Notes under the pieces: generated by a model
Seen by the model: only the letters and a program-made list of their open reading frames with translations
Databases searched by the model: none
Told to the model about the DNA's origin: nothing
Source of the DNA: Eledone cirrhosa
Taxonomy: Eukaryota
NCBI GenBank assembly: GCA_964016885.1
Contig: OZ024740.1
Location: 162,626,001 to 162,690,000, forward strand
Direction: 5' to 3'
Length of the DNA stretch: 64,000 bases
In this document: positions 5,113-60,514 of the stretch, piece after piece
Position numbering within the stretch: the first letter of the stretch is position 1
Layout: every line of letters begins with the position of its first letter
Program-made: the position numbers and the translations under genes

Positions 5113-5635
5113 CATGAAATTAGCTGCCCAGCAGATGCCAATAAAATATCAAAGATTAGTGAAAAGGAGAATATTTATGCAGAACTGATGAGGAATCTGC
5201 AGATACTCCACCCTGATTACACCTTCAGATTTATGCCTGTGATTATTGGGGCACTGGGATATATTAGTAACTGCCTCAATACAAATCTTGAGAAGCTAGG
5301 CTTCACGGGAATAGAAAGAACACAACTAGTTAGGAAATTACAAGTACAATCCATTAATGGAACAGTAAAAAATATGTAAAACATTCCAAACATTTTGCAT
5401 CGAATAACTGCATATACATATGTACAGATACAAAGCATATACACATGCACACATACAACTCAAAGTATACACATCCACACATACAATAACATCCATATCT
5501 ACACATACATGCATACATACATATCTACCTAGTTGATGTTGTGTAAATTCCAATGAGAGAGTCTTGTGTCTTTGTTAGAAACCGACTGTCTCTCTATTGG
5601 TAAAACTTTGTGAAATTATAAAACCAGAAGAACAT
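5113..5635 (+). pseudogene. 5'-truncated R4/Dong-like LINE: restriction-like endonuclease C-terminus and probable 3'UTR
   Basis: EISCPADANKISKISEKENIYAELMRNLQILHPDYTFRFMPVIIGALG, starting immediately after (TACA)n. Confidence 0.7.
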
Positions 5636-5965
5636 GGTGGCTGCCAACTCGTTTTCGAGTACGGCCACTACTTTATATCCATGTAGGAGAACCCCTACCG
5701 ATGCGCTGAACGAGTGTGACTTTTTAGTCCAGCCAGCGACTTGAAAACTCTGGTACAAACACTACACTTGTGACAATTATTGACACATAGTGCTGGGCCT
5801 ATGGTACCATGTGATGACAAGTGCAGAGAGATCTCCAGATATAAAGCAATGCCTGTGCCGTGAAGCTTTTATAGTGAGCAAAGGCACTGCACAAAGCCAG
5901 TCCCACTCTCTTAACCAAGATGATATTTACCAAAAAGAAGAACAAGTCAACATCATTGGATACCA
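5633..5965 (-). mobile_element. Second bipartite RTE derivative (partial 5'UTR + last C2H2 finger + 3' end)
   Basis: Minus strand encodes CSVCTRVFKSLAGLKSHTRSAHR*, compared with RTE CRLCARHFGSLAGLKSHIRSQH; 5847-5960 resembles the RTE 5'UTR. Confidence 0.75.
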
Positions 5966-21421: not shown

Positions 21422-21542
21422 GGTAAACAGAAATAACAACACACTCGGTACAGTATATGGAAGGTATATATTAGGTTAAATCGGGGGTAATCACAGTAAG
21501 AGTAAGGTACTCAATACATAGCAGAGTATAAATATTTAATAT

Positions 21543-21612
21543 AGAAATGGCTTCTACAGGACTGATGATTTCTCCCGAATGAAACAGTTCTAGTCCTGTA
21601 GAAGCCATTTCT
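21543..21612 (+). ncRNA. Hammerhead-like core inside a 21-bp perfect inverted repeat (Penelope pLTR-type)
   Basis: CTGATGA-T-TTC tccc GAA-T-GAAAC; the cleavage triplet does not fit cleanly. Confidence 0.45.
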
Positions 21613-24724: not shown

Positions 24725-25400
24725 GATAGGCAGTATCAGTAGAGGGGCGGACAACATGCTTCGCGGCATAGAGTTACGGTCCTTTAAGTTCTGAGTTCAA
24801 ATACTCTCGAGGTTAGCTTTGCCTTTCATCCTTTCAGGGTCGATAAAATAAAGGACCAGTAAGACACAGATCGATTTAATTGACTTTCCCTTTCCCCAAA
24901 ATTGCTGGCCTTGTGCCTATAGTAGAAACCATTATAAGTCTGCTGGACCACGGCTGACCTCGGGCTAAACAACATTAAATAAATAATTGTTTCTATTTTA
25001 GGCACAAGGCCAGCAATTACCCAGTACATTACTGGTACTTTATTTTATCGACCCCGTAAGGATGAAAGGCAAAGTTAACCTCGGCGGGATTTGAACATTA
25101 AATAAATAATACCAACCTAGTATTATATAACAACCACACCAGTTTTAATTATATAATTTTTCCCTTATTTAGACTTCAGTCTACTTTTCATCATTGACAA
25201 TAATTTTTAGTGTCGTTGTTCTTTTGGCTGTATCGGTAGAGGGTCGGACATCATGCTTTGACGCATAGAGTTACAACCCTTGCCATTCTGAGTTCAAATC
25301 CCGCCGCGGTTAACTTTGCCTTTCATCCTTATGGGATCGATAAAATAAAGTACCAGTAATGCACTGGGGTAATTGCTGGCCTTGTGCCAAAAGTAGAAAC
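24725..25400. mobile_element. Three Meta-SINE copies (about 24725-24935 plus, 24988-25093 minus and 5'-truncated, about 25225-25400 plus)
   Basis: Core motif present; the middle copy has TSD AACATTAAATAAATAAT at 24971-24987 and 25094-25110. Confidence 0.8.
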
Positions 25401-25938
25401 TCTCTTAATTATTTAGTTGTTGTTACTGTTGACGTCGTCGTCGTTGTTCTTTCTAAGGCGCCGAACTACAATGAAAAAGATATTTATTATTAAACATTTA
25501 AATGTGTGACTAATCCCTCAGATAAACTAGACGTTTCATTTTATTTGAAATTCTATAAGCAGACATAAAGTCTTATATTAAATTTTTTTTATTTAAACAA
25601 GTTGAGAATCTAGATTATTATCTATCGTAGCTCGTCTTATATCATAATTCATTTTGTTCCTTTCAGAAACATGCCGTGGAAATTGTAAAAATCTATTATT
25701 TATTTAGTTATATAATGAAATCCTCATTGTGTACAATAGAATAAAAATATAAATATAAATATATATTTTACCGTCGAAAAGTTAATGACCTACAACTGTT
25801 TGTGTTTGTTTAACATATTTTAATCATATTAAAAGAGAAAGAGGAACACAGAGACGGAGGAGACAACGAACGAGTGAAAACTGCAAATCTGAGTCACACA
25901 CACACACACACACACAGACACACGCGCGCGCGCGCGCG

Positions 25939-25979
<41 letters not shown>

Positions 25980-25980
25980 A

Positions 25981-26057
25981 CAGGGTGTCCCTAAAAATGT
26001 ATACATACATTGATTAGAATGTTGCTGAAGTGTGTATATATTTTGAGGGGACACCCT

Positions 26058-26058
<1 letters not shown>
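25981..26058. mobile_element. Tiny Tc1/mariner-type MITE in (TA)n
   Basis: TIRs CAGGGTGTCCC...GGGACACCCTG; a relative lies at 54352-54451. Confidence 0.7.
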
Positions 26059-26104
<46 letters not shown>

Positions 26105-26117
26105 GAGAGAGAGAGAA

Positions 26118-26150
<33 letters not shown>

Positions 26151-26158
26151 GAGATAGA

Positions 26159-26241
<83 letters not shown>

Positions 26242-26821
26242 AGAGAGAGGGAGAGAGAGAGATAGTCTCTGCTGTAGGTAAAAGACCAAAGAATTAAACA
26301 ACTGACAATTAGTACATTAAATTATCTTAACAAATGTGTTTTTTGTGTGTGTGTTTTACTAGTTCTTATTTCCCACGTATATTGTGTTCACTAAAAATGA
26401 ATGTTTATCAAATTCATGCTTGTTATTTGCACAAGTAAAAGAATTGCGCAAATAAAATATATCAAACAAAACAATATATGTGAAACAATGAAACAAGATA
26501 AAGTTTTGTTGTTTTCGACTGATGAGGGAGAAAGAGAAGAAAGAGAGGAACTGACAGACTGACCGACAGACAGAAAGACACTCAGAGAGACAGAGAGAAA
26601 CAGACGGACAGTGAATGCATTTTCAATTCTGTTAGAATTAGATACTCATAAATACTCGGTAAGAGAATATTATGTAAATAAATAAAGAATAATTAAAATG
26701 GTTATTATATATTTGTGGTACAAGAATACAAAAATACACACAGGAATATATAGAAAGAAATAGAGAGAATTGAAATAGAAATAGAAGCTTCGTCGTAACA
26801 TTGGCTACATAGTATAGTCTA

Positions 26822-27412
26822 ATAATTGTTTCTTCTTTTGGTACAAGGCCAGTGCATTACCGGTACTTTATTTTATCGACCCCGTAAGGATGAAAGGCAA
26901 AGTTAACCTCGGCGGGATTTGAACTCAGATCGTAAAGGGACGTAACTATGCTGGAAAGCATGTCCGACCCTCTACCGATACTGCCAATTCACCTAAAGGG
27001 ACGTATAAATCCACTGAATAGAAAAAGATGGGTATCAGCACACATTGGAGTGGAACTCAAACTCCTCGTTTGCTGGATAGTACGCTAACATTACGCAAAT
27101 GAACCCACCCAGCTTTTTCCATTATTTTTCGAAGCTATGGCTTAATAGCGATATGTAAGTATAGGAATTATGTTTGGAACTCACTGAGGGAAGTTTTAGA
27201 ATTGAAATAGATATAGAAGCGTCACCGTAATATTGCCTATATATTTGTTTCTACTTTTGGCACAAGGCCAGCAATTAATCCAGTGTATTACTGGTACTTT
27301 ATTTTATCGACCCCGTAAGGATGAAAGGCAAAGTTAACCTCGGCGGGATTTGAACTCAGAATGGCAAGGGCAGTAACTCTTTGCACTGCATGGCATCCGA
27401 GCCTATACCTCT
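26822..27412 (-). mobile_element. Two Meta-SINE copies (about 26822-26995 and 27245-27412) in a locally duplicated segment
   Basis: Core motif present; the second has TSD CCTATATATT. Confidence 0.8.
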
Positions 27413-27776
27413 ACCTATATATTATAGTCTCATAATGGGGCGTATAAACTCACTGAACGGGAAAAGATGTGTATCAGTACATAGATTCGTGGTTTACTGA
27501 GGAAGTTACTAAAATCAAAGCTCTACGCTATAGCAGAATGCATGTATTAAGATCAAACTGAGGTTTCACGTTAGGGTCTTTATTAATTATGCACAGTTAC
27601 AACCGTTTCACAGATGGGTGGCACAGGATCCATGTTAATGTTATAGACCCGACTCTAGCTCAATCTGCTCATCGGGCTTGTTAATCAAGCGAAACCAATG
27701 TAACATTAACATGACCGTGAAACATTCGTAGCTGTGCATAATCAATAAAGACCTTAATCTGAAACGTCGTTTTGTT

Positions 27777-27840
<64 letters not shown>

Positions 27841-27846
<6 letters not shown>

Positions 27847-28104
27847 TAAAATAACAGATTAAAGTTTAAGCAAAGAATCGCTGCTTTCACCCTTAACGGG
27901 ATATTCTGAAACTAACGAAGTCAATCTGTAAACGCAGAACTGGATATTTCAAAAAACGTTGCAACCGGAGGAAAAGCAGCGATTCTTTGCTTAAACTTTA
28001 ATGTTATTTTGATAAATATTTGCTCTAGGGTTCTTATATATTTGATATATATTTTCCTTATCGAGCCCTCTTTGGATTTTAGTCTTCAATTTTATTATTA
28101 TTAC

Positions 28105-31800: not shown

Positions 31801-32100
31801 GAGGGAGGAATGAACCTTTTAAAGAGAGTTGCAACATGTATGTAGTTTCATAGATTGTTGATGGTAGTAGACAGAGTGAATAAGCGTGTAAGAGAGAGGA
31901 TTAAAGCATTTATTTAGTTTTATCGATTTCTTTTCATAGAAGCAGGAAATTTTTGGCAAAGTTTATTACGCGTTGACCATCCTTGGTAAATTTGGAGCAC
32001 ATTGGAAAAAAATCATCAAAATCGGGAGAGAAATATGGAAATGCATAAACATCATACACACACACACAGACAGACATCTTCCGTTTTATATATAGAGAGA
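28808..32100 (-). mobile_element. Internally deleted Helitron
   Basis: Minus-strand 5' end TCTCTCTATATATAAAA; 3' hairpin CCGAGCAACGCCGGG followed by CTAG|T; RepHel remnants inside. Confidence 0.9.
28988..31070 (-). pseudogene. Helitron RepHel remnant (Rep-helicase linker + Pif1-family helicase)
   Basis: HLENGQRVYF, ECFYLRLLL, GGRTAHSAFK, IVWDECTM, GDFRQTLPV, RAILAPKN, FAMSINKSQGQT, GQLYVACSRV; Walker A and HUH motifs absent; frameshifts. Confidence 0.9.
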
Positions 32101-32567
32101 CTAGCAGAAAACCACCCACCGGGTGGTTTTCTGCTAGTCGATATATATTTAACACACACACAAACACACAAACACACACACATACATATATAAATATACA
32201 CCCATGTTCATATTTTGAGATGCATTATTCTCAAATCAGATTATTATCTCTGACAGGAAGAACCAGTTTATAATTTTTAAGAAAAATTAAGCATACAGAC
32301 ATATTTTAGGAAACTTATGAATTCCTGTACACACACACACACACAAACACTTACACAGATACACACAGACACACGCACAGACAGACACACACGCATACAG
32401 ACACATACGCTAACACACACATACCATACACACACTCATACATACGCACATATGCACACACGCTAACACACACATACACACGCACATACACACTTAAACC
32501 TATATATATGTATATATATAGAGAGACACACATAATATACATATATAATATATATATATATAATATA

Positions 32568-33482: not shown

Positions 33483-34879
33483 TGTATGTGTGTGTATGTG
33501 TGTATGTGTGTGTGCGTGTGTGTGTGTGCGTGCGCGTGCGTGCGTGTGTGTGTGCCTGTGTGTGTGTGTGTGCGCGCGCGCTGCGCTAGCACATGAATAA
33601 TATAGAGATGAAAATTAAGTCATTTTAATCTTATGGTACATGTTTCTAAAAAATAAAAACTAGCAAAAGCAAAATAAATAAATGAAAAACGGAATAGTGA
33701 AACACTTTTCCCAAGCTCCATTATTTAAATATACATGTATCTACAAGCTCCATTATTCAAAAGATAGGTATCTATATATTACAAACTGAACACAGACGCA
33801 AGGAATTACATATTTATTCCGTTCATTTCTATGTCATCAGAGAAGGTGTAAATGATTAAATAAGCAAATACTGTAAAATGATATCCTTATATTTCAACAA
33901 TTACAATATATGTCATGTAATTGTTGAGTTTCAAGGAATTATTCCAAGTATTTGCATTATAAGTTCAAATTCTGCGTAGGTGCCTAAAGTTTGGACAGGT
34001 GGGGCTACATTTTGTAGAGTTGCTAGTATATCACCCGACCGTACATGGATTTGATGTTCCACAAAGGAATGTTATGGGAATTTGGTTTTACAACCTGATT
34101 CCCTCTCAAAGTACAACAGTAAAAAACATTAACACTTTCGTCACCATATTTCTAATGAAAGACATTACCTATAATGTTCAAATAATTTCGAAAATAATCA
34201 AGAATGCGGAAGGATTTAATAATATAACTAAATTTTAAATTATTAAGCTGGTGTGTGGAATATAACTTAACAAAAGATTTTAAAAAACCTTTTAAACCCT
34301 ATTAAAACTTTAAGAAATCCTTTTTGAATTTTTTTTTCTTTTTACTTTCAAATGGGATCGAGTCTCTGGTCTACGTTTATGAAAGAGTCAGTAAATCACT
34401 GTAACTCATTTGCAGATGGGTAAAAAAAAAAATCCGCTGGGAGTGATGGACACCGAGCCGTTGTTACAGTATCTTTCTAAAAGAAGAAAACTTTGAAATA
34501 AAATATGCGGTTAATGTGATTACTGGTCATCTGGCCTAGGCTTGTCACCAGACAATAATCACTAAAACTTAGAGAGTGGTGTTCGTGTAGTACAAGTGTT
34601 TGCCACTATAATCCAATGATGCACAGATGTCTCTTTTGTGATCTTCTCATCTGTCATTTTTACAACTGAAAGTCCTATGGGGACGTGTACAGACGTGATC
34701 AGTAGGAAGCATATAGTTGCATATCTACACATAGGCGGTAGGGGGTCTTATCATAACATCGTTGTTATGTCTTCCTGTGACAGGGACTATATCCATATAG
34801 TTAATTTAGCTTGAAATCAATCATTGATTGACCAACAATTAAAAATATAGATATAAATATATATCTATAAATATATATA

Positions 34880-38162: not shown

Positions 38163-39144
38163 CATATATGTATATACATATATATATATACATACATACA
38201 TATATATATACATACATATATATGGGTACAACAACGTATATATATATATGTATATATATATATGTATATATATATTTAAACGATAATATGCACACACCAC
38301 GCGCGTGCGCAAGATGACGCGTATTTCAAGGTTTGGTATGTTAAATAATTACACTAAAATACGAAGAAGAGAAAATAATGTGAACATGAAGAAAATGACA
38401 AGCTTTGGATATTTTATAAATGCTTACATAATGGCTAAAATAGAAATAATTTGTTGTTCTTTTCAAAGTGTATATATTTTATGACGGTTTCAATCAAGAG
38501 AAAATTGAAATTTAATTGCTTATGTAATTGAAGGCGTGATAGAAACTAGTTGAAACACTTAGTCTTAATAATTGCTTTGCCGTTCTGGTTAGATAGACAT
38601 TTGATTCCAACTTAATGAATTCTAGATGTCAAAAAATTAAATTGGATACCATCGTGAAACGGAAGTTATAAACAAATCCAGACCGGACATAATTTTTGAG
38701 AGACGAGGGAAGCTCTTTCCATGAGAATATATTTCGATTTATATGAAGATTGCCTTTATTTCATTATGTAACCCACGGCATCTTTTTACCATTTAGAACG
38801 AATGCCTTTCAGAGGTGACACACAGGAAATAATGCCGAAAGATTCAGTACAAATTCGGTTCATTCGAAAACCTCCATTTAATAGTGTTGAGCTACATCAC
38901 TCCAACCCAACCTTTCAACACTTGGGCATTTTCGCTACAAACCCAGAAATGGGCCTATACGTAGTCACTTGATCTGCTAGAAATAGTAGCCAAATATCTT
39001 AAATCATATTCAACCGTCTTACAAACAGAACGACACACTGTAGTCTTTAGTATATTGGGGGTTGGGGACGATTTTTCAAGACCTGAGAGTACGTGAATTA
39101 TTGACGAACGTAATAATAAAAACTCAACACCGAAGTAGAGTTTA

Positions 39145-39279
39145 AGTATTCATTTATTATGACTAAGTCTTGTTATTCTGGAGTCTCACCTGCGTACTCA
39201 CCAGACAAGACTGGTGATCTTGTGAGTGCACAGGTGAAACTTTAGAGTAATAAAGCTCACCAATAGCTATAATAAATGA

Positions 39280-39282
<3 letters not shown>
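39145..39282. ncRNA. Degenerate fold-back pair of hammerheads
   Basis: Plus strand CTGGTGA-T-CTTGTG agtg CACAGG-T-GAAA-CTTtaGAG-TA; partly deleted inverted partner to the left. Confidence 0.5.
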
Positions 39283-39313
<31 letters not shown>

Positions 39314-39377
39314 GTAGGACACTGGAAGATAATATCCGTAGTGATAGAGCACTCAGTTCATGGGACGAGTTAGGTAG

Positions 39378-39493
39378 AAGTGGTTACACAACAATTGTTT
39401 CACCTTAGCGGATCCTCAGCTCGTAATGGAGCTGAGGATCCGCTAAGGTGAAACAATTGTTTTCGGTATGGTGAACTAACTGTTGTGTAACCA

Positions 39494-39496
<3 letters not shown>
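39378..39496. ncRNA. Perfect palindrome carrying two head-to-head minimal hammerhead cores
   Basis: 33-bp arms at 39390-39422 and 39429-39461: GAG-CTGAGGA-T-CC gctaa GG-T-GAAA-CAATTG-TT. Confidence 0.65.
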
Positions 39497-39552
<56 letters not shown>

Positions 39553-39882
39553 AGATGAATACATTAGGTATAATACCAGTTTCTTATCAAATGCGAAGAA
39601 GCTCGGCAGGGCACAGGAAAGGGCACAGATCATAAGTTTTTTTAAATATATAATATATACAGTGGTGGTAGAACTTCATGCCACCCTCTAATAATTATAT
39701 TTTCTCCCCAAACTACCCAAAACACACATCTATTTGGACATGCGCTACAATTTATGTACATGTTATGTTTATCGTATATCGAATTTTTCTGACTATTTTA
39801 GAGTGCAAAGAGCTAAACTAATCACTACAACTAAATTGTCTAAATTTGGCTCCCACAATTCAGAAATGCTTCACCGCCTCTG

Positions 39883-41214: not shown

Positions 41215-44200
41215 TATAGTAATAATAATAAAATTGAAGACTAAAATCCAAAGAGGGCTCGATAAGGAAAATATATATCAAATATATAAAAACCGTAGAG
41301 CAAATATTTATTAAAATAACAGATTAAAGTTTAAGCAAAGAATCGCTGCTTTCACCCTTAACGGGATCTTCTGAAACTAACAAAGTCAATCTGTAAACGC
41401 AGAACTGGATATTTCAAAAAACGTTGCAACCGGAGGAAGACAGGAAGACGATACTTTGGTTCGTGGAAACGTTCGCTGGCAAAGAACGGGAAAAAACGAA
41501 TAATACGTCATTAATAGGAGCGGTGAAAAACAATTACACGCAAAGACAGAACCACGTTTATGGTATAAAAGAGGTCGTAGACTAATGTTCTCTTAGGTGG
41601 TGCATAGAGACGTTCTCTGGCAATGAACGAAAAAACGAAGATAATAAGTCATATGTGGAGCGTGGAGAACAATAGCACGCAAAGACAAAACCACGTAAAT
41701 GGTATAGCAGAAGTCGTAGACTAAAATACTAACTAGGAGACCAAATGAATCTCCGCTACAGAGTTAAGAACAAAGTAAAATACAATACAGAAGTAATAGA
41801 AACAAATAAATACATACACGCAAACAGATACGTACATACACAAGCATCCGCAAAACCTTACCATAGGTATACGAAACCACGCAATATAAATATGCGTGTG
41901 TGTGTATGCTTGTGTACAAATAAATAAATAATTATATAAACGTATATAAGTAAATAAATACGTATATAACAAGCGCACGCACACACCTACAAATAAATAC
42001 ACGAATGTTCGGAGACGTAGGTCAACTAAAACAAGAAGTACACATATACACACACCCACCATACTTACGAACCTGCATACTCACGCAGACGCAAAACTCT
42101 CGTATACACATAGCCAAACCCTAAATACCAGAATATGTAAAAATTATACGCCAAGGCAGTCAAATATACGTACGAGAAGGTATACATACCTTCACAAAAC
42201 ATACAAGTAATATATACTTACCTATGCAAATAAGTAAAGGAATAAACAAAACATATACTTAGCTCCCGCATCAAGACGTAAAATATCCACGTATAGATCG
42301 TGCTATCCGTTGGGGTATATCGTGGGGCTGTAATACAGGAAAGTTTTGTGCAATTTATGTTTACAAGCCGAAATTGCCACGGATTTTTTGTTTAAGATGT
42401 GGTCTGTGGCGTAGAGTATTTCCAGGGCCTCAGCGGCGCAGAGGTCACATGGTCTTTTATTTCCGTAATACGATCTAGCCCTAGCTAGGATCTCCCAGTG
42501 TAACTTATATTGGGTGTGGTTGTCTTTTAGACTCCAGATATAAGCTGAAAGTGACGTCATATTCCTTCTTAGAGGGTAACGAAAAGAATGGGTATGCATG
42601 TAAAGACGCTGCTTGAAACTATTGGCGGTTAACCCTATGTAGGCCCTACGGGACGTGGGTGTTACAACCTTACATTTGTAGACAATGTTACTAGAGAGGC
42701 ATTTCCCGGATAGGGGGCAATCAGCCCGATTCCTGCAATTACAGTTAGTACTAACTACAGGGTTGCACGTGTTCCTACGGCTAGGTAGTTTAGCTAAATT
42801 TGAAGCTGTGATGTTATGTGCAAGGTTAGGAGTCGTAGAGTAAGAAATTTGAATAGTATTTCTATTAAAAATTTTACTATATTTATGTGTAGGGGGAAAA
42901 TGCTTCGTAATAAGGGAAAGAAAGATCTTAGCTAATGGTGTGGCCACCTCCATATTATATGGTGGGTTAAACCAACAAATGCGACGGGATCTATTTCTTC
43001 TAGGTCTATTTTCGTACTCTGTATAAGCTACTTTATCGACAAATCCACTTCGAGCAAGAGCTTCATTGTAATAAGTGGAATGGTCGTTGAAAATGAGCTC
43101 GTTGGTGGAAAGACGGGAAAGCCTCAACGAAACGTTTTTTACCAGGTTCTTGGTTATGCTGGCAGGATGGTTGGAATGCTTACTTATGTAATTAAGCGTA
43201 TCATTCGGCTTTCTATACGGGTAATACAACCCATTCAATAAATTGAGGGTAACGTCGAGGTAATTAACGACCGAGAGATTGGCCTCAACTTGTATAGAGA
43301 GGTTGAAGCCTTTAAAGAAGGCTGTGAGTTCTTTTCTGAACCTGTCGCAAGCACGAGGTCCGCACTTAGTCATGGTCAAAAGACCATCGTCACGGTACAA
43401 ACCACCGCCCGCGTTGGGGAATTCGTCCTTGATAGAGAAAAGAAGGAAAAGGCCAATAAGATCAGTAACCTCCGCAGAGTCACTGGCGCCCATACTCACG
43501 TCGAATGGGGTGCTATTGGATTTTTTAATCCAAATAGAGTCGTCGAAATTAATCACCGACTTTCGGGCAATAAGGATGACATCAACTTCGAAATCCTTAA
43601 CCACTGTGAGTGTTTTAGCGAAATTGATAGCTCTAAGGAGAAGTGGTAAAGTGATGGAGGAGTAGTAATTGTTGATGTCGAATTGGATAAAACGGCAATG
43701 TTCCTTGTTACATATGCCGTTGAACCAATCAATCACCGCGAAGGAATTGTTCCACAGTGCGAGAGGGGCCAAACTTCTAATTTCAGGTATAATTCTATCA
43801 AGAATCGTTTTACTAAGTCTACCTAAATCGGACTTCGTAGGGTTAATAAGCCGAATAGAGGGGTTGTTCGGAAAATTGGATTTGTGAGAGATAGGGTCCA
43901 GAGGTTCGGTCCGGTCCATGATGTTGAGATCAGATGTGATTTTAAACCCAGCATCGTTGATTTCATTGATGACACACCGATTAGTTTTACGGTAATCCTT
44001 AGTTAAAGCATTATGTAGTAGTTGATGGTAAGTACTGCGCTCCACTTGATATAGGTTGCCAGTTTTGTCGGAATGGACGTGCACGGCGTTAGAATCCTTA
44101 ATAGAACGAATTCTATTCTTCAGGTCTTGCTGGAAGGAATTGCTCCTATTCCGAAATTTGATACTCCGAATGAGTTCCAAGACATCATTTTCGAAGGGTA

Positions 44201-44450
44201 GCAATGCTGGGTTCCACGGAGGGTTATTATAGGTCTTAAATCCAAATTTATCTTGTTTGTTGTCTGCTTTTCGCGGATTATCGAAATAAAAGGCACGCCA
44301 ACGCAACCTTTTAATGAACGCGTCTGTTTTCTGTATCAGGAGTTTTAGGTATGTTTTCCTGCTTGGTACGGGTATGTTCTTTGTAGAAATATTCAGATGT
44401 TGTTTCTGCATGATGAATATAAGTCAGTAGAGTGCTCAACCGAAGGAGCC
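41215..44450 (-). mobile_element. Penelope-like retroelement (Naiad-like) with 3' pseudo-LTR, between (TA)n-rich arrays
   Basis: ORF below; pLTR at about 41215-41440 is repeated at 27841-28110; hammerhead-like CAGAAGA-T-CCC gttaa GGG-T-GAAAGC on the minus strand at about 41348-41373. Confidence 0.85.
42303..44411 (-). CDS. Penelope RT + zinc-finger linker + GIY-YIG endonuclease (702 aa, open)
   Basis: [41 protein letters not shown], CNCxxxxxCPLxGxC, IVY...YIGLT..FKQR, CDLC, CKH. Confidence 0.9.
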
Positions 44451-55401: not shown

Positions 55402-55507
55402 ATTTGCTCAATGGGCGGGATTTGAACTTCACCATGTACACCATAGTATGTGTTCTAACATACTATGGTGTACATGGTGATGTTCAAATCCCGCCCATTG
55501 AGCAAAT
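55402..55507. repeat. Near-perfect palindrome with arms of about 50 bp, each containing a B-box-like motif
   Basis: ATTTGCTCAATGGGCGGGATTTGAAC...GTTCAAATCCCGCCCATTGAGCAAAT. Confidence 0.85.
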
Positions 55508-58121: not shown

Positions 58122-58169
58122 CGTGCATACATTTACACACACATATATATATATATATACATTCTTTAT

Positions 58170-58300
58170 TAAGGCCAAGTTTGAATCCTGTTAATTCGGA
58201 GTTTTCCAGTGCACTCACAGGATCATCAGACACAGTCTTGCATGATAACCTTGTGAATACACAGGAGAAACTCCAGAGTAATAAGACTGAAACTGGTCTA
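58170..58300. ncRNA. Degenerate fold-back hammerhead pair, same family as 39145-39282
   Basis: Minus strand CTGATGA-T-CCTGTG agtg CACTGG-aaaa-CTCC; plus strand CTTGTG aata CACAGG-a-GAAA-CTCcaGAG-TA. Confidence 0.5.
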
Positions 58301-58318
58301 GTATATATATATTACCCC

Positions 58319-58365
<47 letters not shown>

Positions 58366-58372
<7 letters not shown>

Positions 58373-58744
58373 AGATCCGAAGGCATGGTATAAATTTCCA
58401 ATCATTTTAATCACGACACATGTTTCAATAAGAGATAGATCGATTATGCGGCCATGATCGATTATCACTGATCTCGTCAGGTGAAAATGAATTGTCTTCA
58501 AATCCTTGATATGAGGGAGAAAATTTAACGATGTTCACTCACTAGAGTTTTGTCCCCCATAACTCTAGTGAGTGAACATCGTTAAATATTCTCCCTCATA
58601 TCAAGGATTTGAAGACAATTCATTTTCACCTGACGAGATCAGTGATAATCGATCATGGCCGCATGATCGATCTATCTCTTATTGAAACATGTGTCGTGAT
58701 TAAAATGATTGGAAATTTATACCATGTCTTCGTATCTTTATTTT
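58366..58744. ncRNA. Palindrome of about 380 bp with one complete hammerhead per arm (58411-58484 minus; 58626-58699 plus)
   Basis: TCAC-CTGACGA-GAT...ATCGATCATG gccg CATGATCGAT...ATT-GAAA-CAtgTG-TC|GTGA; canonical GUC site. Confidence 0.8.
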
Positions 58745-59485
58745 GATACAAATACTCCGTTTTACATCATCTAGCTGTTCCCATAAATGGAATTGGAGAT
58801 ATACAAAAGCGTGGAGAACTTAATATTGCTAACAAAAATTTATTGGACCGTATGACACAACCAATAATACACCTTACTATATAACAACTATATATATATA
58901 TATATTACAAATGCTGCTTTCGAAGGACCAACTCCTAAACAAGAAAGGCGAACTGGTAACCGCATGCAAATACAGATTGCGTAGGACTTACCTCGTCCTC
59001 AAATCCCATAACGACCCGGGTGGGTAGACAAGGGCTGATACCCCCCACCTGCCGAATAAGTAATGGGAAACCCCTGCTTACATAGGTAGACGTACCTCTT
59101 TTCTTTTCCTCTACGTTTCCTTCTTCCCCCCGTCTCATCCTATCACTTCCTTCCACCCCCGATCTTCTTCCTCGTCTGTTTTTCCCCTTTCGCCTACCCC
59201 GATGCAGCCCATCGGTCATCTGTAGCCTCAGTACCCCCACCCCTGTAATTTTAAGATAGAATTGGCCGATTACGCTTTATTAACTATTTATAGCAGATGT
59301 GTTAGACTCCTGTAATTTCTTCTTTTTTGTTACTACTCCTATTCTACAATTTCAAAATTTCTTATTTAGTATTTTCTTTTCTCAACTTATTAACCTGTAA
59401 TTGTAAGATAGCATTGGCGGAATACGCTTTACTAACTATTTATAGCAGCTGTGTTAGACCCTCTGAAAAGTTTGCATTATATTTG

Positions 59486-60056
59486 TGGATTGGCAGTATC
59501 GGTAGAGGGTCGGACGCCATGCTTTCCAGCATAGTTACGTCCCTTAACGATCTGAGTTCAAACCCCGCTGAGGTTGACTTTGCCTTTCATCTTTACGGGG
59601 TCGATAAAATAAAGTACCAGTAATACACTGGGTAATTGCTGGCCTTGTGCCAAAAAGTAGAAACAATTATATTCGTGGATTGGCAGTATCGATAGAGGGT
59701 CGGACGCCATGCTTTGCAGCAAAGAGTTACTGTCCTTTATGGTCTGAGTTCAAATCCCGCCGAGGTTAACTTTGCTTTTCATCTTTACGGGGTCGATAAA
59801 ATAAAGTACCAGTAATACACTGGGTAATTGCTGGCCTTGTGCCAAAAAGTAGAAACAATTATATTCGTGGATTGGCAGTATCGATAGAGGGTCGGACGCC
59901 ATGCTTTGCAGCAAAGAGTTACTGTCCTTTATGGTCTGAGTTCAAATCCCGCCGAGGTTAAATTTGCTTTTCATCCTTACGGGGTCGATAAAATAAAGTA
60001 CCAGTAATACACTGGTATAATTGCTGGCCTTGTGCCAAAAGTAGAAACTATTATAT
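59486..60056 (+). mobile_element. Head-to-tail trimer of Meta-SINEs
   Basis: Three units of about 190 bp joined by ATTATATTCG; units 2 and 3 are almost identical. Confidence 0.9.
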
Positions 60057-60514
60057 TTATCACTACCCACCTCTACAATTTCTTATTTAGTATTTTCCAT
60101 TCTCTACTTATTAAACTTTTCTATAGCTTTGCCGTACTAGCAACACCTACTAATTATAGCAGCTGTTTCTAGATACTACTGTTTTTGTTTTTTTATTCAT
60201 TTCTCACTATCTAATTTTTTATATATATATATATTGTTTTTCATTGTCTCCTACTCCCTTTCGACTTACCTATTCTTTAAACTCCCCTCCTCCTTTTGCT
60301 CCAGAACAATTTTTCGACTTTTCATACACTATCCTTAGAATCTGCTGTATAGATTTCACTTTCAACGCCTGACTGGATTTACTCATTCCCTCTTTGTTCT
60401 ACCGGCAAGTTTAGCCACCCTACCTCCCACCAAATGCCATGATAGATTTATTTGTCTTTACAACAAATTTTGACCAATCCTCTTGACAATTACAATCTTC
60501 TCATATAAGGATGT

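What the first reader, a model, noticed from the sequence alone, without database searches (positions are those of the whole stretch)
39145..39496. The head-to-head hammerhead architecture recurs in unrelated families
Seen: 39390-39461 is a perfect palindrome with 33-bp arms, each a minimal hammerhead core. 39145-39282 and 58170-58300 are two diverged members of another family, with inverted hammerhead-like arms around a short spacer. 27540-27780 is a further degenerate fold-back (minus strand CCGATGA-GCAGAT...ATCTGT-GAAA-CGGTTG-TA). In these, the fold-back axis lies shortly upstream of the CUGAnGA core and a (TA)n array is adjacent. Inference: either the inversion step of Penelope retrotransposition is positioned by the ribozyme, or these 100-400 bp palindromes are amplified as units.
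Basis: partly seen in the sequence, partly recalled or inferred. Interest (0 to 1): 0.75.

Follow-up and report, generated by a model that had tools for sequence, protein, structure and literature searches.

The report
Penelope hairpins fold at RNA start
These hairpins are short head-to-head insertions of Penelope-type jumping genes in TA repeats; they turn most often at one family-specific spot next to the predicted ribozyme, not at its predicted cut, likely because both arms are copied up to the capped start of the element's RNA.

Summary
Real, mostly a known architecture. 39311-39496 is a tail plus two head-to-head pLTR arms of a Hydra-clade Penelope-like element (2,408 exact tail matches genome-wide). 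Across 117 copies chosen without regard to the axis, 53 of 56 hairpin junctions differ, so this family is not amplified as a unit. Yet 32 of 175 arm ends fall 6-10 nt upstream of the hammerhead core (2.8 expected), and 1 at the predicted cut (4.3 expected). Arms stopping at the modal base often gain an untemplated C, the known mark of copying an mRNA cap, sometimes on both arms. The mode differs by family: about -8, -7, -6 (TATA box 30 nt upstream), -32, and inside loop II in the commonest family. Best reading: both broken DNA ends prime copying that runs off a capped RNA start; the ribozyme is near the axis because it sits at the RNA's start. 39145-39282 is different: one old hairpin carried as a passenger in a DNA-transposon-like repeat with 5-bp target duplications. 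No RNA data were available. The scan noted cap run-off before, in this and other genomes.

The parts
39311..39374 (-). Family A tail, 64 nt, present on one side only; in longer copies it continues into the 5' UTR and ORF
   Evidence: L083: pLTR-tail-UTR-ORF
39375..39429 (-). Family A tail-bearing pLTR arm; hammerhead core (C3 = 39419); 23-bp deletion after 39393 removes helix I 3' strand; ends 1-2 nt past the modal 5' end (modal base = 39427)
39429..39496 (+). Family A inverted arm with complete minimal type I hammerhead motif (core 39432-39453, predicted cut after 39461); ends at the pLTR end
39390..39461 (.). Perfect 33-bp inverted repeat with 6-nt spacer (centre of the hairpin)
39283..39310 (.). 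(TA)n target, left part
39496..39549 (.). (TA)n target, right part
39057..39882 (.). Left-truncated copy of a non-coding DNA-transposon-like repeat (terminal inverted repeat 39870-39882; 5-bp target duplications in complete copies) that carries hairpin B and hosts insert A in its internal (TA)n
39093..39282 (.). Family B tail (about 39093-39146) and hairpin (39147-39282), fixed junction near 39210, both cores degenerate; passenger
58160..58300 (.). Free, independently inserted relative of family B; axis in helix I 5' strand
27475..27780 (-). Family C: tail (about 27475-27540), arm with long-stem-II hammerhead (core 27669-27675), inverted arm from about 27699 lacking the core, (TA)n at 27780
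21480..21612 (-). Family E tail plus hairpin; family used as independent test (TATA box 30 nt upstream of modal 5' end)

Best explanation
The hairpins are short insertions of Hydra-clade Penelope-like retrotransposons in (TA)n, and their axes likely mark where two reverse-transcribed copies ran off the capped 5' end of the element's RNA. Shown: one arm begins at the tail end and the other 64 nt away at the pLTR end; arm ends pile up at one family-specific base; untemplated C follows that base. Inferred: the endonuclease cuts (TA)n, each DNA end primes at one of the two internal start sites in the 5' leader, both copies stop at the RNA's start (or earlier or later on broken or read-through RNA), and the two cDNA ends are joined head to head by end-joining. 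The hammerhead lies near the axis because it sits at the front of the transcript and is copied uncut. Hairpin B at 39145-39282 is one old insertion of this kind later spread by a DNA-transposon-like carrier.
For: Family A consensus built in the script encodes RT + CxCX5C linker + GIY-YIG; L083 shows pLTR-tail-UTR-ORF with RWR and DKT motifs. 67 of 117 copies have an adjacent inverted arm, 48 of those end at positions 65-66. 32 of 175 arm ends at 138-142 vs 2.8 expected; 1 at 100-104 vs 4.3; same peak in both arm types (0.061 and 0.067 per nt). Genome-wide 370 of 2,117 arms reaching base 140 have a non-template next base; by hand count of the first 100 rows, 77 end there, 24 with a C explained neither by template nor by the other arm, against 5 unexplained T and 2 unexplained A. 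Elsewhere the first inserted base is C in 6 of 33 and 0 of 9 ends at base 120. Junctions with extra C on both arms, in unequal number, exist. Inverted arm longer in 16, tail arm longer in 19 of 56. Family E: all 17 of 30 rows that extend upstream carry a TATA box, 14 at exactly 30 nt before the helix I start. Family M ends cluster inside loop II (12 of 19). Extra G = cap: PMC3287187, PMC11702581 (passages). Two internal start sites, both strands extended, uncut RNA used: PMC11167929.
Against: No RNA 5'-end data. Untemplated C could be added at any physical RNA end, capped or not. Family A has no TATA box at -30. Family D shows a broad spread of ends. In the youngest family E subfamily only 2 of 12 ends at -6 have an unambiguous extra C (hand count). 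Arm lengths are correlated (rho 0.62) and several hairpins are symmetric far from the mode, which a closed-hairpin intermediate or later central deletion also explains. All four CGG junctions fetched have the same orientation to the tail, so a small master lineage is not excluded. In A, B, E and by eye C the mode also coincides with the 5' edge of helix I. Families B, C, E and M were not linked to their own ORF here.
Confidence: 0.65

Rival explanations
1. One cDNA folds back on itself and primes its own second strand (self-priming); the hairpin is then opened into a palindrome. Helix I and loop III symmetry of the ribozyme guide the fold.
For: Correlated arm lengths, 21 of 56 within 3 nt; arms share non-consensus bases 9-fold more than copies do (0.020 vs 0.002 per site); 9 arm ends at the loop III palindrome and a few helix I mirror junctions such as L081. 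Self-priming proposed in PMC3846280 (passage).
Against: Inverted arm is longer than the tail arm in 16 of 56; both arms can carry their own extra C; the peak is also seen in copies without a long inverted arm. Shared variants are equally expected from one source RNA.
Confidence: 0.17
2. The ribozyme itself sets the axis: by cleavage, or by stalling the enzyme at the 5' edge of helix I.
For: Mode equals the helix I 5' edge in A, B, E and, by eye, an extended helix in C.
Against: No peak at the cut; family M turns inside loop II; axes 35 and 52 nt upstream in two other families; 84 of 88 sampled fold-backs have no motif by my strict descriptor; ribozyme-dead RNA inserts normally in vitro (PMC11167929).
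Confidence: 0.08
3. The palindromes are SINE-like units copied whole from a few masters, with later central deletions.
For: True for hairpin B inside its carrier (26 of 30 same junction); recurrent CG and CGG junctions in A.
Against: 53 of 56 junctions distinct; arms run from under 30 nt to over 1.6 kb into the ORF; free relatives of B have varied junctions.
Confidence: 0.07

Closest known systems
Hydra clade of C-terminal EN+ Penelope-like elements, incl. Hydra-1_Obim (Craig et al. 2021, PMC8557442; section 11, passages and supplement passages seen)
   Same: CxCX5C linker, DKT, RW[K/R], CxxC and CxH in the endonuclease, (TA)n targets, hammerhead in pLTR, inverted 5'-truncated copy, one-sided tail
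   Different: Tail is 64 nt, not 30-40; the passages seen give no end statistics or cap signature and call the origin of inverted structures unresolved
Head-to-head PLE palindromes in Adineta (PMC3846280, passages) and opposite-strand hammerhead pairs 100-700 bp apart in Schistosoma (PMC4209133, passage)
   Same: Head-to-head inverted pLTRs with palindromic junctions; paired hammerheads on opposite strands from truncated PLEs
   Different: Explained there by self-priming on an antisense template or not explained; here junction statistics favour two run-offs on sense RNA
Poseidon PAc in vitro (PMC11167929, parts 1-2 of 4 read)
   Same: Two internal RT start sites bounding the tail, both strands cut and extended, AT-rich targets, uncut RNA as template
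   Different: Other clade; cap run-off and joining of two cDNAs not shown there
Cap-derived extra G at full-length L1/SVA 5' ends; L1 twin priming (PMC3287187, PMC11702581, passages)
   Same: Untemplated G at a defined 5' end; both target ends can prime
   Different: L1 twin priming inverts without duplicating; here both arms cover the same sequence
hAT5 DNA transposons (5-bp TSD; PMC12730594, passage)
   Same: Carrier of hairpin B has short terminal inverted repeats and 5-bp target duplications
   Different: No transposase found or sought; superfamily assignment rests on termini only

Membership tests
Hydra-clade PLE (family A) | Single ORF with RT and C-terminal GIY-YIG | tested here: met
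   motifs read; Pfam gave no hit, so by motif only
Hydra-clade PLE (family A) | CxCX5C linker, RWK-like and DKT motifs, CxxC/CxH | tested here: met
   against PMC8557442 section 11; RWR instead of RWK
Hydra-clade PLE (family A) | (TA)n insertion, pLTR, tail, inverted 5' copy | tested here: met
   17 of 90 lack a TA run right after the tail, 4 of them continue into the ORF
Hydra-clade PLE (family A) | Phylogenetic placement of RT | not tested
   no tree built
Neptune-clade PLE | CX2-5CxxC linker and CCHH motif in EN | tested here: not met
   linker is CxCX5C type; first reading dropped
PLE (families B, C, E, M) | Own RT/EN ORF joined to the pLTR | tested here: inconclusive
   Hydra-like ORFs follow the tail side in two E loci; none tied to B, C or M; architecture only
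Minimal type I hammerhead | CUGAnGA / GAAA / UH core with helices I-III and palindromic loop III | tested here: met
   A + arm and family consensuses; window copies of B and C are degenerate
Minimal type I hammerhead | G10.1-C11.1 pair | tested here: not met
   U-U in A, B, D, E; G-U in C; feature from PMC4209133 passage
Minimal type I hammerhead | Rfam hammerhead model match | tested here: not met
Minimal type I hammerhead | Self-cleavage | not testable with these tools
   needs in vitro assay
Non-LTR retrozyme | Tandem direct repeats with a hammerhead | tested here: not met
   inserts are single and inverted; tandem arrays exist elsewhere
hAT5-like non-autonomous transposon (carrier of B) | Terminal inverted repeats and 5-bp TSD | tested here: met
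   6 loci with both ends: 4 exact, 2 with one mismatch
hAT5-like non-autonomous transposon (carrier of B) | Partner hAT transposase | not tested
   no search made

The most novel reading that the evidence does not exclude
The genome holds a fossil record of Penelope's unsolved inversion step: both cut strands prime at two fixed leader sites and run off a capped RNA start, so short hairpins are paired strong-stop cDNAs and their axes map each family's transcription start, which in several unrelated families is the first base of hammerhead helix I.
Probability: 0.55. Interest if true: 0.65.

Novelty: new variant of a known kind. Interest (0 to 1): 0.42.

Why it matters
How Penelope-like elements make their inverted ends, and what their hammerheads do, are stated open questions (PMC8557442). 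These data give exact predictions: a capped start at a named base per family, uncut RNA as template, two priming events. They also explain why this genome has about one fold-back per 7 kb, and show that a fixed-axis hairpin family can be a passenger of another transposon.

Tried and rejected
Neptune assignment: dropped after checking Hydra motifs. Rfam scan of the whole window: 267 matches, 150 shown, nearly all microsatellite noise, no hammerhead among those shown. Pfam and PDB sequence searches: nothing useful. Control at base 120 was confounded by a sister family; only 9 true ends. Automatic end mapping for families E and G-K was unreliable because hairpin copies were picked as references; only D and direct reading were used. 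Splice-acceptor origin of the 5' boundary was considered (E and M have pyrimidine tracts and AG; the D. virilis intron ends at helix I, PMC4209133) but family A has no AG at its mode and no shared upstream exon appears. U10.1-U11.1 is not universal (U-A in the free B subfamily). Strict hammerhead rate in sampled fold-backs (4 of 88 vs 1.9%) is a weak test: the descriptor misses family M and decayed copies.

Full report
Observation. 39390-39461 is an exact 33-bp inverted repeat with a 6-nt spacer. It is the middle of a 186-bp insert between two (TA)n runs: a 64-nt one-sided tail, then arms from 39375 to 39496. A 23-bp deletion in the left arm makes the perfect part look short and removes that arm's helix I 3' strand. 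As RNA the insert folds into one long hairpin that buries both cores (z = -12). The other three sites are fold-backs next to (TA)n, but with decayed cores, and at 27540-27780 only one arm has a core. Rfam finds no hammerhead at the three spots tested; the motifs are called from core letters and stems.

What family A is. A 31-nt tail pattern has 2,408 exact matches in the 3.0-Gb genome. I took the first 90 in positional order and 30 more matched on the tail alone, dropped 3 (two duplicates of held loci, one rearranged) and mapped 117. Long copies lead into an ORF with RT, a CxCX5C linker and GIY-YIG; L083 shows pLTR, tail, UTR and ORF start with RWR and DKT. These are the Hydra-clade features of PMC8557442 section 11; the lead came from earlier scan notes and replaced my first label, Neptune. 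By eye the protein resembles Hydra-1_Obim in that paper's supplement, so a cephalopod host is likely (inference).

Where the axis lies. 67 of 117 copies have an adjacent inverted arm; 48 of these end at positions 65-66, the pLTR end. Junctions range from position 69 to beyond 1,600; 53 of 56 are distinct. Arm ends peak sharply: 32 of 175 at positions 138-142 (core C3 = 132) against 2.8 expected from flanking rates, and 1 at the predicted cut (102/103) against 4.3. Ends are alignment ends, good to a few bases, and the two arms of a copy are not independent. A second small peak (9 ends at 112) is the self-complementary loop III.

Cap signature. Of 2,117 arms that reach base 140, 370 have a non-template next base. 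Hand count of the first 100 rows: 23 are substitutions that continue; 77 stop: 18 run into TA, 24 have a C explained by neither template nor other arm, 16 have an ambiguous C, 16 T (5 unexplained), 3 A (2 unexplained). Some rows are two arms of one locus. That is about 13% of arms stopping at one base. Controls: C is the first inserted base in 6 of 33 other junction sides and in 0 of 9 ends at base 120. Several loci carry the extra base on both arms, one or two C. An extra 5' G is the published mark of copying the cap (PMC3287187, PMC11702581; passages). Base 140 is an A in a pyrimidine-CA context like an initiator (motif recalled, no call).

Other families. Free relatives of B: by eye none of the 30 loci extends more than about 10 nt past the core. 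Family C: 8 of 27 end at -29 to -32, 6 at -17 to -23. Family E (23,273 pattern matches): about 31 of 100 rows continue; most others stop 3-6 nt before the core; in one subfamily 8 of 18 have an unexplained C, in the youngest only 2 of 12 (hand counts). All 17 of 30 rows that extend upstream have a TATA box, 14 exactly 30 nt before helix I. Family M, 17 of 88 sampled fold-backs, has a variant core and turns inside loop II: 12 of 19 end within three bases. Family D is broad. So the mode is family-specific and not tied to the core, though in A, B, E and by eye C it is the 5' edge of helix I.

Hairpin B. 26 of 30 copies anchored on its left arm have the same junction and the same arm-specific changes; 4 have deletions across it (the anchor selects this lineage). 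They lie in a longer non-coding repeat with terminal inverted repeats; six loci with both ends show 5-bp target duplications, 4 exact and 2 with one mismatch, as in hAT5 (PMC12730594, passage). Here the palindrome was spread as a unit, by another transposon. Insert A then landed in its internal (TA)n.

Genome-wide. 60 evenly spaced 10-kb stretches hold 88 fold-backs; 57 adjoin (TA)n (control 14%); 4 contain a strict hammerhead (control 1.9%).

Mechanism. Shown in vitro for another clade: two internal start sites bounding the tail, both strands extended, uncut RNA used (PMC11167929, parts 1-2 of 4). Inferred here: each target end primes at one site, both copies run to the capped start, and end-joining links them. 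Inverted arms longer than tail arms (16 of 56, 19 the reverse) and separate extra bases argue against simple fold-back; correlated lengths (rho 0.62) and shared variants fit one source RNA but also a hairpin intermediate.

Novelty. Inverted truncated copies, tails, TA targeting and opposite-strand hammerhead pairs are in print (PMC8557442, PMC3846280, PMC4209133; passages). An internal promoter is known for D. virilis Penelope (PMC2377424, passages). Searches listed no paper reporting cap-marked ends on both arms; the library lacks most subscription journals, and supplements other than that of PMC8557442 were not read (those of bioRxiv 2026.07.22.740005, passages seen, are closed). The scan's own unchecked notes reach a similar reading in this and other genomes, and one reports ends at the cut instead; I formed the cap reading before seeing them.

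Noticed in passing
window 41220-44450 (-): Near-complete Hydra element of family D with a stop-free 706-aa frame (42303-44423) and a hammerhead variant with A in place of U4; a short D hairpin lies at 27839-28019.
   Followed up: partly
L319 (4045-9164), L324, L351: Tandem arrays with one hammerhead per unit (310, 556 and 482 bp), retrozyme-like; the L319 array switches strand near 5300-5750.
   Followed up: no
L349:1957-2069 and 16 other sampled fold-backs: Family M, the commonest hairpin: variant core, long stem III, axis inside loop II, TATA-like word about 30 nt upstream in 2 of 4 long copies.
   Followed up: partly
window 58356-58754: 197-bp arms at 96% complementarity beside (TA)n, no canonical core seen; few relatives in the fetched loci.
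   Followed up: no
window 39432-39453, 21562, 41372: Several families have U11.1 and U10.1 instead of the usual G-C pair closing stem II.
   Followed up: partly
window 39311-39380: A short word recurs at the pLTR end, mid-tail and tail end, and a small bulged hairpin follows the pLTR end; both start sites read TA.
   Followed up: no
L427: The two arms carry different subfamily variants in helix I, which could mean two template RNAs; single case.
   Followed up: no
window 55402-55507, 25952-26087, 32083-32155, 33860-33960: Further fold-backs without a recognised hammerhead.
   Followed up: no
window 59476-60057; 877-2177; 24726-27409: Three tandem 192-bp units and several inverted pairs of an abundant SINE-like repeat.
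   Followed up: no
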